From: a virus
Length of the DNA: 64,000 nucleotides
Virus record (IMG/VR): IMGVR_UViG_3300020733_000010
Span: 1-64,000 of that record
Direction: 5' to 3' (one strand)
Part shown: piece after piece, positions 9,560 to 49,302 of the stretch
How positions within the stretch are numbered: position 1 is the stretch's first letter
Layout: each line of letters opens with the position of its first letter
Made by a program: the position numbers and the translations under genes
Notes under the pieces: generated by a model
Told to the model about the DNA's origin: nothing
What the model saw: the letters and a program-made list of their open reading frames with translations, nothing else
Databases searched by the model: none

Positions 9560-9588
9560 ATTATAAACCCGAAATGATTTATTGTCAA
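9560..9588 (-). promoter_or_regulatory. consensus sigma70 early promoter, repeat copy 1
   Basis: TTGACA-ATAAATCATTTCGGGTT-TATAAT. Confidence 0.9.
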
Positions 9589-9920
9589 ATTTGATTCAAT
9601 GCTGAAACACGAATCTCATCATTGTCTACTTTAATGCTACGACTAAAGCTAGGGTTGTTTTTCATTTTTTGACGCAAACCCAATTTCTGATATTTGTCAA
9701 GGGCCAAGCGTTTGCCTTTAGTACCAATGCCACCACGGCCCATTGAAACCAAACACATCATTTGTTTACAAAAGTAGTAATTACTGTCTGTCAAATCAAT
9801 GCCAATGCCATTAGCAACAATGCGCTTGAGTTTGTATAGTGATGTTGGACCCGTAACACCCTCAACTAGTTTGTACTCAGCAGTTTTTGAGAATTCAGCG
9901 TAGTCTGTTAAAATGCTCAT
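9585..9920 (-). CDS. hypothetical early protein
   Basis: GGAG RBS; TGA stop lies in the -35 box of the next promoter. Confidence 0.75.
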   Translation of the reverse strand: MSILTDYAEFSKTAEYKLVEGVTGPTSLYKLKRIVANGIGIDLTDSNYYFCKQMMCLVSMGRGGIGTKGKRLALDKYQKLGLRQKMKNNPSFSRSIKVDNDEIRVSALNQI

Positions 9921-9954
9921 GTTTAGCTCCTGTTTGTTGACTGTTTAAGATTCT

Positions 9955-9983
9955 ATTATATACCCAAAATGATTTATTGTCAA
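9955..9983 (-). promoter_or_regulatory. consensus sigma70 early promoter, repeat copy 2
   Basis: TTGACA-ATAAATCATTTTGGGTA-TATAAT. Confidence 0.9.
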
Positions 9984-10153
9984 ATTTTAAAGGTATAAAA
10001 GATGCCAAATTCATTCAGTAATTCTTGAATGGTCCTAGAATCTAATGTGAAAAATTTACCTTTGTTGACTTGAATGATGTCAAAATACTTTACATTGTCC
10101 GAAGTAACATTCCACTTTGACATTTGTTTCATGTTTATTGAAATAGTTCCCAT
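9980..10153 (-). CDS. 57-aa early protein (not in ORF track)
   Basis: AAGGAG RBS, MGTISINMKQ...GIFYTFKI*; stop lies in the next -35 box. Confidence 0.65.
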   Translation of the reverse strand: MGTISINMKQMSKWNVTSDNVKYFDIIQVNKGKFFTLDSRTIQELLNEFGIFYTFKI

Positions 10154-10183
10154 GTGCGACTCCTTTAATCAATCAATACATGT

Positions 10184-10223
10184 ATTATATGCCCAAACTG
10201 ATTTATTGTCAAGTTTGGGCATA
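10184..10223 (-). promoter_or_regulatory. sigma70 early promoter copy 3 overlapping a 12-bp stem-loop
   Basis: TTGACA-ATAAATCAGTTTGGGCA-TATAAT; inverted repeat TATGCCCAAACT/AGTTTGGGCATA at 10188-10223. Confidence 0.9.
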
Positions 10224-10229
10224 CATTGT

Positions 10230-10466
10230 TTACGATTGATAGCCCAAAAACTGTTCAGTGTCGTACCAAGCTACTGCTTTAGTATTCAATTCGTACACTA
10301 GTACTGGGTACGCATTCTCGTTGATTGTGTCAAAAGTAATGTCTTTTTCAAAAGTTTCAGTCATCAGGTCCTCGTCATAATCAAACAACTCGCCATCAAA
10401 CTCAACATTAAATTTGTTAGTGTTCACAAACTCGTCAATATCGTAAGTCATAGTAGGCCCTTTCAA
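10230..10466 (-). CDS. small acidic early protein (likely start 10451)
   Basis: ORF immediately downstream of promoter copy 4. Confidence 0.7.
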   Translation of the reverse strand: MKGPTMTYDIDEFVNTNKFNVEFDGELFDYDEDLMTETFEKDITFDTINENAYPVLVYELNTKAVAWYDTEQFLGYQS

Positions 10467-10480
10467 GTGATTAAGAGTCT

Positions 10481-10509
10481 ATTATATGCCCAAACTGATT
10501 TATTGTCAA
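10481..10509 (-). promoter_or_regulatory. consensus sigma70 early promoter, repeat copy 4
   Basis: Identical to copy 3: TTGACA-ATAAATCAGTTTGGGCA-TATAAT. Confidence 0.9.
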
Positions 10510-46906: not shown

Positions 46907-47278
46907 TTAATGAATTTTACTTTGTGCCCTACAATTGGGGCATATCAATTGTAGATTATTTTCTTTGTTGTTGTAACTGTCGCCGTCTTTGTAAATTACA
47001 TCTAACGGGACTTTGTCACCATTCCAAAACTTTGTATCACACACTTCACATGCATGTCCTCGGTTTTGAATCAAATACTGTTTGATATAGTCAGGAATCT
47101 TAGCCCACGCTTGTGGCGTTTTAGCTTCTTTCCATTCTTGGACTTTCTCAAACGCCTTGTTTCTGCGCTGATGTTCTTGCTGGCAACTATTATTACAGTA
47201 CTTGTTGGTGTAAGAAGATCCTTTGCTAGGATTATTCCTACCACAATTTAAACAAGTAAAACAACCTAAATTTGACAT
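46907..47278 (-). CDS. zinc-binding HNH-like protein, apparently degenerate
   Basis: CLNC, YCNNSC, CEVC, ICPNC; DVIYKDG and CPNCRAQ in place of DHIDG and CPNCH. Confidence 0.8.
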   Translation of the reverse strand: MSNLGCFTCLNCGRNNPSKGSSYTNKYCNNSCQQEHQRRNKAFEKVQEWKEAKTPQAWAKIPDYIKQYLIQNRGHACEVCDTKFWNGDKVPLDVIYKDGDSYNNKENNLQLICPNCRAQSKIH

Positions 47279-48970: not shown

Positions 48971-48994
48971 AAAAAAGGCTACCGAAGTAGCCTT
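48971..48994 (-). terminator. tmRNA terminator with UUCG loop
   Basis: AAGGCTAC-TTCG-GTAGCCTT followed by T-run. Confidence 0.88.
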
Positions 48995-48995
48995 C

Positions 48996-49254
48996 TTAAG
49001 TAGCGTTTGGTTATAAGGCGCTACTCAAACCTCATTTAGGCTGCAAGAGCCCAAACAGCATCATTGGCTGCATTTACTTTGTTTTCTTCTTTTTACATCG
49101 TTGCTGATGTGCTGTCCAGTCAAATACTGATTACCCAATCGATCACCATGTCCGCCCCACTAAAAAACTCTTTTTCAAAAAAAATCTTTTGGTGGAGCGG
49201 GGGGTTTCGAAACCCCGTCTTGAATACTTTTCTTTTTCCTTCATACAGCAATAA
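48996..49254 (-). ncRNA. ssrA: circularly permuted two-piece tmRNA
   Basis: Acceptor piece (about 49254-49190) ends GAC-GGGG-TTTCGAAA-CCCC-CCGCTCC-ACCA; 31-nt spacer; coding piece starts GGGGCGG at 49158 (G3-U70 Ala identity); tag ORF 49071-49036 AANDAVWALAA*. Confidence 0.92.
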
Positions 49255-49302
49255 CTTATATTTAATCATAATTGACAATACCTGTCAATTAGTTTGGGTA
49301 AG

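What the first reader, a model, noticed from the sequence alone, without database searches (positions are those of the whole stretch)
48996..49265. Phage-encoded circularly permuted two-piece tmRNA with its own degradation tag
Seen on the minus strand in this order: a late-type TTAAATA box; an acceptor piece ending ...GACGGGGTTTCGAAACCCCCCGCTCCACCA; a 31-nt A/T-rich spacer; a coding piece starting GGGGCGG, which pairs with CCGCTCC to give G3-U70; TAAAT-GCA resume context; tag AANDAVWALAA*; and a UUCG terminator. The inter-piece helices TTGGGTA/TATTCAA and TTGCTG/CAGCAA are present. Established: permuted ssrA occurs in alphaproteobacteria, some cyanobacteria and some betaproteobacteria, and C-terminal LAA is the ClpXP/ClpAP signal. 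The phage tmRNAs I know best are one-piece. Inference: this is host-derived ribosome rescue retooled for late infection, and the Trp in the tag may alter SspB/protease recognition.
Basis: partly seen in the sequence, partly recalled or inferred. Interest (0 to 1): 0.82.

Follow-up and report, generated by a model that had tools for sequence, protein, structure and literature searches.

The report
Mosaic two-piece tmRNA gene in giant phage
This uncultured giant freshwater phage really does carry its own split ("two-piece") ribosome-rescue RNA gene with its own degradation tag, a kind of phage gene already published, but here its tRNA-like core has been swapped in from another phage lineage and has an unusual shortened T loop.

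Summary
Window 48971-49288 (minus strand) is a complete circularly permuted tmRNA gene. It scores above Rfam's cutoffs for tmRNA_permuted (96.8 bits) and beta_tmRNA (106.1 bits), and ARAGORN calls it once the threshold is relaxed, with tag AANDAVWALAA. Twelve distinct relatives give strong covariation: 98.5% of cells paired, 16 of 35 pairs changed on both sides, G3:U70 in 12/12.

- Phage two-piece tmRNAs are already published (Melnitz; 53 forms in phage genomes).
- The promoter is sigma-70-like (TTGACA-N17-TTAAAT), not late-type.
- The Trp sits at the tag's conserved aromatic (F/Y) position.
- One inter-piece helix partner was mis-assigned.

New here:
- The gene is a mosaic. Its flanks, tag and terminator are 100% identical to a sister phage. 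The 120-nt tRNA-like core with its 31-nt spacer comes from another phage tmRNA lineage.
- That core has a 6-nt T loop, seen in 18 phage or metagenome contigs and in none of 185,579 species genomes.
- Two complete relatives (364 and 436 kb) have the tmRNA but no SmpB.

Relatives' spacers often hold real small genes, including a thioredoxin. This scan has noted phage permuted tmRNAs and spacer genes many times on other DNA.

Verdict: a new member of a known kind, of moderate interest.

The parts
49260..49288 (-). Sigma-70-like promoter: -35 TTGACA (49288-49283), 17-nt spacer with TG at 49268-49267, -10 TTAAAT (49265-49260). The predicted start is near 49253.
   Evidence: Read directly. The same hexamers and spacing occur before the L019 tmRNA, and at G000 172308 inside the tRNA array and at 43278. 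The consensus scanner did not list it because the -10 lacks A at position 2.
49190..49253 (-). Acceptor piece, the 5' piece of the precursor. It holds the terminal-helix strand UGCUG (49250-49246), P2a strand UAUUCAA (49226-49220), T stem GGGGU/ACCCC (49216-49212 with 49205-49201) with a 6-nt loop UUCGAA (49211-49206), acceptor 3' strand CCGCUCC (49200-49194), discriminator A (49193) and encoded CCA (49192-49190).
   Evidence: Rfam alignments, ARAGORN -ps, covariation. The 5' end is inferred from the promoter, not measured.
49159..49189 (-). Intervening spacer of 31 nt, A/U-rich. It folds into a hairpin that extends the acceptor stem, has U at -1 of the presumed RNase P site, and holds no ORF.
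   Evidence: Spacer length ranges from 4 to 273 nt in relatives while the flanking tRNA-like halves are conserved. The -1 base is U in 84 of 88 distinct spacers.
48971..49158 (-). Coding piece. It holds the acceptor 5' strand GGGGCGG (49158-49152), a D-loop-like segment (49151-49139), P2a strand UUGGGUA (49138-49132), terminal-helix strand CAGCA (49114-49110), hairpin ACAUC/GAUGU (49110-49095), the tag reading frame, the post-tag hairpin and the terminator.
49036..49071 (-). Tag reading frame: resume codon GCA (49071-49069), encoded tag AANDAVWALAA, stop UAA (49038-49036).
   Evidence: ARAGORN. An open Ala-initiated frame is kept in all relatives although the tags differ: 73 distinct tags in 138 loci, and 80 of 113 end in LAA.
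48998..49033 (-). Post-tag domain: hairpin GAGUAGCG/CGCUACUU (49026-49019 with 49005-48998) with the conserved loop CCUUAUAACCAAA. The upstream GAGG (49033-49030) can pair with the loop's CCUU (49018-49015), a candidate pseudoknot.
   Evidence: Rfam beta model alignment and fold. The loop motif is shared with relatives and with cellular beta-type genes. The pseudoknot pairing is inferred from conservation only.
48971..48995 (-). Intrinsic terminator: GAAGGCUAC-UUCG-GUAGCCUU followed by a U run.
   Evidence: The simple terminator scan did not list it.
49119..49238 (-). Recombinant core: both halves of the tRNA-like domain plus the spacer, replaced relative to the sister phage.
   Evidence: Against L153, the flanks 49325-49239 and 49118-48960 are 87/87 and 159/159 identical. 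The core has 24 mismatches and a 180-nt length difference against L153, but 0-1 mismatch against L006/L009.

Best explanation
The locus is a functional, circularly permuted (two-piece) tmRNA gene of a giant, probably T4-like, freshwater phage.

How it most likely works:
1. Host RNA polymerase starts at a sigma-70-like promoter and makes one precursor that ends at the UUCG terminator.
2. The precursor folds so that the two halves of the tRNA-like domain pair across a 31-nt spacer hairpin.
3. Host RNase P cuts before G49158. 3'-end trimming exposes the encoded CCA at 49190, and the spacer is lost.
4. This leaves an acceptor piece of about 64 nt and a coding piece of about 187 nt, held together by the acceptor stem, helix P2a and the terminal helix.
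5. Host AlaRS charges the RNA through G3:U70 and A73. Host SmpB delivers it to ribosomes stalled on broken mRNAs.
6. Translation resumes at GCA 49071 and appends (A)AANDAVWALAA, and the LAA end sends the product to ClpXP-type proteases.

Shown here: the gene anatomy, the structure by covariation, conservation of the tag frame, the absence of SmpB in complete relatives, and the mosaic origin. The tRNA-like core and spacer were acquired by recombination from another phage tmRNA lineage, replacing a canonical core whose 211-nt spacer holds a 65-codon ORF in the sister phage.

Inferred, not shown: transcription, processing, charging, SmpB use, tagging, and the benefit to the phage. The likely benefit is keeping ribosomes free while mRNAs are being degraded during infection.
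For: - Detection: Rfam RF04321 96.8 bits and RF01850 106.1 bits, both above their gathering scores. ARAGORN -ps calls a permuted tmRNA with the tag.
- Structure: covariation on 12 distinct relatives gives 98.5% paired cells against 35-52% when slid. 16 of 35 pairs change on both sides. The acceptor stem has four sequence versions, all keeping G3:U70. The terminal helix has six versions. The free-energy fold recovers the same helices, z = -4.37.
- Spacer excision: spacer length runs from 4 to 273 nt beside conserved tRNA-like halves, and the -1 base is U in 84 of 88 distinct spacers. This fits excision at an RNase P site.
- Tag: 73 distinct tags in 138 loci, all open Ala-initiated frames, 80 of 113 ending LAA.
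- Conservation in phages: all 5 relatives picked through an unrelated neighbouring gene carry a permuted tmRNA above the cutoff. Two of these are complete genomes with terminal repeats. None of 11 records has SmpB.
- Mosaic.
- Promoter class.
Against: - There are no expression or processing data.
- The T arm is non-canonical: a 5-bp stem with a 6-nt loop, or a 4-bp stem with an 8-nt loop. ARAGORN therefore scores the gene below its default threshold. Whether such a T loop supports SmpB and ribosome function is untested.
- The -10 hexamer TTAAAT lacks the usually essential A at position 2.
- The invariance of the T stem among relatives comes partly from my search pattern.
- The window's record is only about 51% complete, so an SmpB gene in the missing half cannot be excluded for this phage itself.
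Confidence: 0.8

Rival explanations
1. One reading: a host-derived rescue system expressed from a late promoter and retooled for late infection, with the Trp changing adaptor or protease recognition of the tag.
For: TTAAATA resembles the T4 late box TATAAATA in 6 of 8 positions. Earlier notes call the phage T4-like, which I did not check. The tag is the only short tag in the sample with W at the aromatic position.
Against: A perfect -35 TTGACA lies at 17 nt, with TG at -15/-14. The same promoter form occurs in the tRNA array and before the L019 tmRNA. Other relatives have different upstream sequences. W replaces F or Y at a conserved aromatic position. The family is old and phage-borne, not a recent capture from a host.
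Confidence: 0.08
2. The RNA acts mainly as a decoy. Its odd tRNA-like domain titrates host SmpB or AlaRS and damps host trans-translation, rather than rescuing ribosomes.
For: A tRNA-like-domain-only RNA of mycobacteriophage DS6A is reported to inhibit tmRNA, perhaps by titrating SmpB (PMC4131195; PMC11915505). The non-canonical T loop is absent from 185,579 species genomes. No phage SmpB was found.
Against: A full mRNA-like domain is kept, with a conserved resume context, an open tag frame and a protease-type C-terminus. This holds in every member that carries this T arm, across 12 different tags. That conservation would not be needed for a decoy.
Confidence: 0.07
3. The gene is a non-functional recombination scar or decaying pseudogene. 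The core swap produced a chimera that no longer works.
For: The gene is a mosaic. ARAGORN flags this subclade as low-scoring. The window lacks a hairpin that most relatives have (a 23-nt gap).
Against: After the swap all inter-piece helices still pair: the terminal helix UGCUG/CAGCA lies in the flanks, and P2a and the acceptor stem lie within the core. The junctions fall in segments conserved in both parents. The donor-type core is kept unchanged in 12 contigs with intact tags. L019 independently lacks the same hairpin.
Confidence: 0.04
4. It is a fragment of a bacterial ssrA gene picked up at a prophage attachment site, or bacterial contamination of the contig.
For: tmRNA genes are common integration sites, and phages can carry ssrA fragments (PMC9004378).
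Against: The gene is complete, with both halves, promoter and terminator. It is conserved in at least 120 viral contigs, including complete genomes with terminal repeats. No cellular genome has this T arm. The surrounding DNA is phage-like at 38% G+C, with 29 tRNAs in the record.
Confidence: 0.01

Closest known systems
Phage-encoded two-piece tmRNA (ssrA) of marine T4-like myophages: OM43 phage Melnitz, pelagimyophages, and 53 ARAGORN-called permuted forms among 18,146 phage genomes (Buchholz et al. 2022, PMC9004378)
   Same: It is a permuted gene order in a large lytic-type phage, with a complete tRNA-like domain and tag, no phage smpB reported, and a proposed role in keeping the hijacked translation machinery running. 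An early-type promoter was suggested for Melnitz too.
   Different: Melnitz's gene is alpha-type and placed with a glutamine riboswitch. The window's gene is beta-like (alpha model 25.6 bits, below cutoff). It comes from a freshwater-type giant phage, has a 6-nt T loop and is a recombinant. blastn against 50,697 phage records found no match for it.
Betaproteobacterial two-piece tmRNA (Rfam RF01850; Sharkady and Williams 2004, as cited in PMC9004378), e.g. Accumulibacter, Thauera and Azoarcus with tag ANDERFALAA
   Same: It has the same gene order and the same helices (terminal helix, P2a). The spacer frame is AAAG...CUUUUGAU. The hairpin after the terminal helix is the same. The tag type is AND-x-x-aromatic-ALAA. 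The post-tag loop is of the CCUUGUNACC type.
   Different: The window scores 106 bits, against 169-296 for genuine members. A cyanobacterial gene cross-scores 87.9 on the same model. The T loop is 6 nt rather than 7. The spacer is longer than in many cellular genes. The sequence is low in G+C, and the gene is carried and exchanged by phages.
Alpha-type permuted tmRNAs of cultured Rhizobiales jumbo phages: Sinorhizobium phage Phosso and Rhizobium phage RHph_I1_18
   Same: These phages are distant relatives by a shared neighbouring gene and also carry a permuted tmRNA. RHph_I1_18 keeps it in a tRNA cluster with a tRNA(CUA).
   Different: Their tmRNAs match the alpha model (108 and 60 bits), not the beta model. 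Related phage lineages therefore carry different permuted tmRNA types.
tRNA-like-domain-only RNA of mycobacteriophage DS6A, and one-piece tmRNAs of Bxz1-like mycobacteriophages and Bacillus phage G (Hudson et al. 2014, PMC4131195)
   Same: They are phage-borne members of the tmRNA family.
   Different: Those are one-piece genes or lack a tag. The window's gene is permuted and has a full tag.

Membership tests
tmRNA, permuted (two-piece) form (Rfam RF04321) | Score at or above the curated gathering threshold of the family model | tested here: met
   96.8 bits against a gathering score of 47, with the full model matched 1-213.
tmRNA, permuted (two-piece) form (Rfam RF04321) | The 3' half of the tRNA-like domain (T arm, acceptor 3' strand, ACCA) lies upstream of the 5' half, and the two form a 7-bp acceptor stem | tested here: met
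   CCGCUCC at 49200-49194 pairs with GGGGCGG at 49158-49152. Four covarying versions occur among relatives, with 100% of cells paired.
tmRNA, permuted (two-piece) form (Rfam RF04321) | Alanine identity: G3:U70 wobble pair and discriminator A73 | tested here: met
   G49156 pairs with U49196, and A49193 is the discriminator. G:U is kept in 12 of 12 distinct relatives. Actual charging was not tested.
tmRNA, permuted (two-piece) form (Rfam RF04321) | Canonical T arm: 5-bp stem and 7-nt T loop | tested here: not met
   The arm is GGGGU-UUCGAA-ACCCC, a 6-nt loop with one position deleted relative to both Rfam models. This departs in one element and does not exclude membership: the whole-model scores pass, and the variant is conserved in 18 contigs.
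tmRNA, permuted (two-piece) form (Rfam RF04321) | Tag reading frame with an Ala resume codon, an in-frame stop and a hydrophobic protease-type C-terminus | tested here: met
   The frame runs from GCA to UAA and encodes AANDAVWALAA. The frame is conserved across 73 distinct tags.
tmRNA, permuted (two-piece) form (Rfam RF04321) | The precursor is cut into two RNAs, with the spacer removed | not testable with these tools
   Support is indirect only: variable spacer length and U at -1.
tmRNA, permuted (two-piece) form (Rfam RF04321) | Works with SmpB | tested here: inconclusive
   No SmpB (PF01668) was found in the window's record or in 10 relatives' records, including two complete genomes. A host SmpB is presumed but the host is unknown.
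Betaproteobacterial tmRNA (Rfam RF01850) | Score at or above the gathering threshold, and in the range of genuine members | tested here: inconclusive
   106.1 bits is above the gathering score of 84, but genuine members score 169-296 and a cyanobacterial gene cross-scores 87.9. The gene is beta-like in layout. It is not shown to be a member of the cellular clade.
Betaproteobacterial tmRNA (Rfam RF01850) | Clade-specific elements: terminal helix, hairpin after it, post-tag loop CCUUGUNACC, terminal hairpin | tested here: met
   All are aligned, and the motifs are shared with Thauera, Azoarcus and the low-GC genome G079.
Alphaproteobacterial tmRNA (RF01849) and cyanobacterial tmRNA (RF01851) | Score at or above the gathering threshold | tested here: not met
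   The alpha model gives 25.6 bits (gathering 50) and the cyano model 33.1 bits (gathering 70).

The most novel reading that the evidence does not exclude
In giant-phage tmRNA genes, the tRNA-like core and its spacer behave as an exchangeable cassette. Recombination occurs at the conserved segments CUGUAUGAAG and UGGACAG that flank the core.

In this window such a swap replaced a canonical core, whose spacer carries a 65-codon gene in the sister phage, with a short-spacer core that has a phage-only 6-nt T loop.

If such swaps are selected, they would be a modular way for phages to retune ribosome rescue and to gain or lose spacer-borne genes. Possible selective reasons are matching a new host's SmpB, AlaRS or RNase P, or escaping a host factor that recognises the tRNA-like domain.
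Probability: 0.3. Interest if true: 0.6.

Novelty: new member of a known kind. Interest (0 to 1): 0.4.

Why it matters
It confirms that giant freshwater phages carry their own ribosome-rescue RNA while relying on the host's SmpB. It also shows that a default ARAGORN run misses this subclade.

The beta-like type hints at a betaproteobacterial host, because the Rhizobiales phages carry alpha-type genes. Melnitz shows that this rule can fail.

The clean mosaic is direct evidence that phages exchange parts of a structured RNA gene. Because the two parental forms differ in T loop and spacer content, they are a natural pair for testing what the tmRNA T loop and the intervening sequence tolerate.

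The wider family offers many natural tag variants, and a slot in the excised spacer that is repeatedly filled by small genes. Both are easy to test in laboratory strains.

Tried and rejected
- ARAGORN at default settings finds no tmRNA. It needed -ps.
- blastn ('distant') of 501 nt against 50,697 phage records found no match.
- The standard tmRNA model RF00023 gave only tRNA-level noise in the record.
- The first genome-collection scan, for the exact T-arm form, found nothing, which is informative.
- The second genome-collection scan used too general a pattern. It mostly returned one-piece tmRNAs of Chloroflexota, Chlorobia and others, plus Rhodocyclaceae.
That tally of 151 genomes includes one unpublished genome (G040), which gave only a sub-cutoff hit. 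No sequence from it is used.
- I considered a functional link between the tmRNA and the amber-suppressor tRNA: readthrough creates non-stop complexes, and the two genes are adjacent in L006 and 3.4 kb apart here. I rejected it as a general rule because only 9 of 138 tmRNA loci have a tRNA(CUA) nearby.
- I considered TAG recoding. It is not supported: recoding does not lengthen the long ORFs, although TAG is a rare stop (3 of 123).
- The simple promoter and terminator scanner listed neither the promoter nor the terminator of this gene.
- The two spacer ORFs of L153 and L154 have no significant family matches and are unrelated to each other.

Full report
WHAT IS THERE

The window is the first 64 kb of a 178,144-bp IMG/VR virus record that CheckV rates as 51% complete. 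It has 36-41% G+C and 29 tRNA genes.

On the minus strand between 49288 and 48971 lies a complete circularly permuted tmRNA gene. Rfam reports two matches above curated thresholds. tmRNA_permuted (RF04321) scores 96.8 bits against a gathering score of 47. beta_tmRNA (RF01850) scores 106.1 bits against 84, aligned end to end. ARAGORN at default settings misses the gene. With the threshold relaxed to 95% it calls a 'Permuted' tmRNA with tag AANDAVWALAA.

Anatomy, read:
- Promoter: -35 TTGACA at 49288-49283 and -10 TTAAAT at 49265-49260.
- Acceptor piece: about 49253 to 49190.
  - terminal-helix strand UGCUG at 49250-49246
  - P2a strand UAUUCAA at 49226-49220
  - T arm at 49216-49201
  - acceptor 3' strand CCGCUCC at 49200-49194
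  - ACCA at 49193-49190
- Spacer: 31 nt, 49189-49159.
- Coding piece: starts at G49158.
  - acceptor 5' strand GGGGCGG
  - P2a strand UUGGGUA at 49138-49132
  - terminal-helix strand CAGCA at 49114-49110
  - hairpin at 49110-49095
  - resume codon GCA at 49071-49069
  - stop UAA at 49038-49036
  - post-tag hairpin at 49026-48998
  - terminator at 48995-48971

IS IT REAL?

Pattern scans found relatives. The window's exact T-arm form occurs in 10 IMG/VR contigs and 8 metagenome contigs. It occurs in none of the genomes representing 185,579 bacterial and archaeal species.

All these relatives are permuted tmRNAs. On an alignment of 12 distinct sequences (A2) I wrote out six helices and had them counted.
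- 98.5% of cells form standard pairs, against 35-52% when the 3' partners are slid by 1-3 columns.
- 16 of 35 pairs change on both sides, and 0 of 500 shuffles reach this.
- The acceptor stem has four versions: GGGGCGG/CCGCUCC, GGGGGUG/CACCUCC, GGGGCUG/CAGCUCC and GGGCCCG/CGGGUCC.
- G3:U70 is kept in 12 of 12.
- The terminal helix between the two pieces has six versions.

The T stem is invariant, but my search pattern required it, so that invariance carries no weight.

A free-energy fold of the precursor recovers the same helices and adds a spacer hairpin stacked on the acceptor stem (z = -4.37).

Every relative keeps an open tag frame that starts with Ala, although the tags differ.

1. The partner of UGCUG is CAGCA at 49114-49110. 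The CAGCAA at 49106-49101 lies in the loop of the next hairpin.

2. The 'late-type' box is the -10 element of a sigma-70-like promoter, TTGACA-N17-TTAAAT with TG at -15/-14. Exactly this form precedes the tmRNA of the distant member L019. It also occurs inside this phage's tRNA array at 172308. The record has six canonical TTGACA-N17-TATAAT promoters, and the T4 late box TATAAATA is not present here. The -10 lacks the usual A at position 2, which is why the simple scanner skipped it. The promoter assignment is therefore likely but not proven.

3. Trp sits at the aromatic position, fifth from the C-terminus. That position is F or Y in the short tags of the family, for example ANDEQFALAA and ANDESYALAA.

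WHICH KIND OF PERMUTED tmRNA?

Scored one model at a time, the window gives alpha 25.6 bits (gathering 50), cyano 33.1 bits (gathering 70) and beta 106.1 bits.

Genuine cellular beta-type genes score 169-296 bits, and a cyanobacterial gene cross-scores 87.9 on the beta model. Only 4 of 151 sampled Burkholderiales genomes reach the cutoff. That tally includes one unpublished genome, G040, which gave only a sub-cutoff hit.

The gene is therefore beta-like in layout but is not a member of the cellular clade. Features shared with cellular beta-type genes, most clearly with a low-GC 2.0-Mb genome (L170, tag ANDENFALAA), are the AAAG...CUUUUGAU spacer frame, the GCUG/CAGC terminal helix, a UAGGCGAAGA-type hairpin loop and the post-tag loop.

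THE PHAGE FAMILY

- All 5 records tested carry a permuted tmRNA above the cutoff (89-119 bits). Two of them are complete genomes with direct terminal repeats, 364,247 and 435,856 bp.
- None of these 5, none of 5 other tmRNA-bearing records, and not the window's own record encodes SmpB. These phages must use the host's SmpB.
- Distant cultured relatives are jumbo phages of Rhizobiales. Phosso and RHph_I1_18 carry alpha-type permuted tmRNAs, and Atu_ph07 has none.
- The complete relative G007 also encodes a true ClpP (NCBIfam 298.8 bits, cutoff 249) and a 143-aa protein that matches only the GGQ domain of release factors. Neither gene is in the window's half-genome.

THE MOSAIC

The sister phage L153 (IMGVR_UViG_3300006112_000022) is 98% identical in the neighbouring protein.
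- Upstream (49325-49239) it is 87/87 identical to the window.
- Downstream (49118-48960) it is 159/159 identical. That stretch includes the same tag and terminator.
- Between 49238 and 49119 the two differ at 24 positions, and L153 has a 211-nt spacer.

Over that same core the window matches L006 and L009, a different tmRNA lineage, with 0-1 mismatch. Relatives at 84-85% identity (L152, L154, L155) have the L153-type core, so the window's core is the one that was replaced. The junctions fall in segments conserved in both parents, CUGUAUGAAG and UGGACAG. All inter-piece helices still pair after the swap.

MECHANISM

This part rests on established tmRNA biology and is inferred here, not shown.
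1. One precursor is transcribed.
2. RNase P cuts before G1. The -1 base is U in 84 of 88 distinct family spacers.
3. The 3' end is trimmed to the encoded CCA.
4. AlaRS charges the RNA through G3:U70 and A73.
5. Host SmpB delivers it to stalled ribosomes.
6. Translation resumes at GCA.
7. The LAA end targets the product to ClpXP-type proteases.

The window's RNA is compact, about 251 nt when mature. It lacks a second hairpin that most relatives have between the terminal helix and the tag (a 23-nt gap). L019 lacks the same hairpin.

NOVELTY

Phage two-piece tmRNAs are published:
- Melnitz, plus 53 permuted forms among 18,146 phage genomes, mostly marine or aquatic (PMC9004378).
- tmRNAs and SmpB in huge phages (PMC7162821).
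- 79 phage tmRNAs in the 2025 database (PMC11915505).

This scan has also noted them very often on other DNA: 750 notes in at least 635 genomes, including genes nested in the spacer.

What I did not find described is the beta-like phage family with a 6-nt T loop, and the clean swap of the tRNA-like core between phage lineages.

A link between the tmRNA and the amber-suppressor tRNA was tempting, because the two are adjacent in L006 and 3.4 kb apart here. It does not generalise: only 9 of 138 loci show it.

LIMITS

The host is unknown. The window's record is incomplete.

Noticed in passing
L197-L316 (IMG/VR relatives), e.g. L260:213-464:-, L201:1266-1460:+, L208:5658-5861:+: In the common form of this phage tmRNA family, the excised spacer often holds a small protein gene. 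20 of 23 distinct spacers of 120 nt or more have an ORF covering at least 80% of the spacer, against a mean of 0.46 and a maximum of 4 in 1000 shuffles. Eleven spacers of 82-93 nt encode 22-26-aa hydrophobic peptides. The ORFs are unrelated to each other, and one is a true thioredoxin (PF00085, 75 bits). The spacer's SD-like 5' end UAAGGAAG pairs with its 3' end UUCCUUA, and the stop codon lies 1 nt before the RNase P site. The papers I searched do not describe this, but this scan has noted it before on other DNA.
   Followed up: partly
window 45498-45574 (-); L006 2627-2703: An amber-suppressor tRNA (anticodon CUA) lies 3.4 kb downstream of the tmRNA on the same strand. In L006 it lies about 40 nt after the tmRNA terminator. 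TAG is a rare stop in the record (3 of 123 long ORFs). Earlier notes cover this tRNA. The linkage with the tmRNA holds in only 9 of 138 family loci.
   Followed up: partly
L014 (Ga0208868_1016924, 1119 nt): This contig has the window-type acceptor piece ending in CCA, but no coding piece in the 986 nt downstream. It may be an acceptor-piece-only gene, a very long spacer, or a rearrangement.
   Followed up: no
L152 spacer (L152:1563-1655): The 93-nt spacer of this relative's tmRNA contains a tRNA-like T arm (GUGG-UUCGAUU-CCAC), but ARAGORN calls no tRNA there.
   Followed up: no
L317 (G007:171280-171825) and L319:1438-1866:- (G007): The complete 364-kb relative encodes a true ClpP (NCBIfam subfamily cutoff passed). 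It also encodes a 143-aa protein matching only the GGQ/peptidyl-tRNA-hydrolase domain of release factor 1, an ArfB-like architecture. It has no SmpB. G008 has two ClpP-family hits.
   Followed up: partly
L006 7073-7534 (-): A GOLLD RNA (RF02032, 203 bits) lies within the tRNA array of the phage contig that also carries the window-type tmRNA core.
   Followed up: no
window 9560-10509 (-): Four near-identical canonical promoters, TTGACAATAAATCA...TATAAT, are repeated within 1 kb.
   Followed up: no
family tags, e.g. L207, L236, L209, L289: Many family members encode unusually long tags of 23-33 residues, such as ANADTFDFSAMSFTGNTVSGKSKVALAA. These fall into recurring sequence classes beside the short AND-x-x-F/Y-ALAA class.
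   Followed up: no
window 46907-47278 (-): An HNH endonuclease gene (PHROG hits at E about 1e-11) lies between the tmRNA and the tRNA(CUA). This fits the insertion of mobile genes into this RNA-gene region.
   Followed up: no
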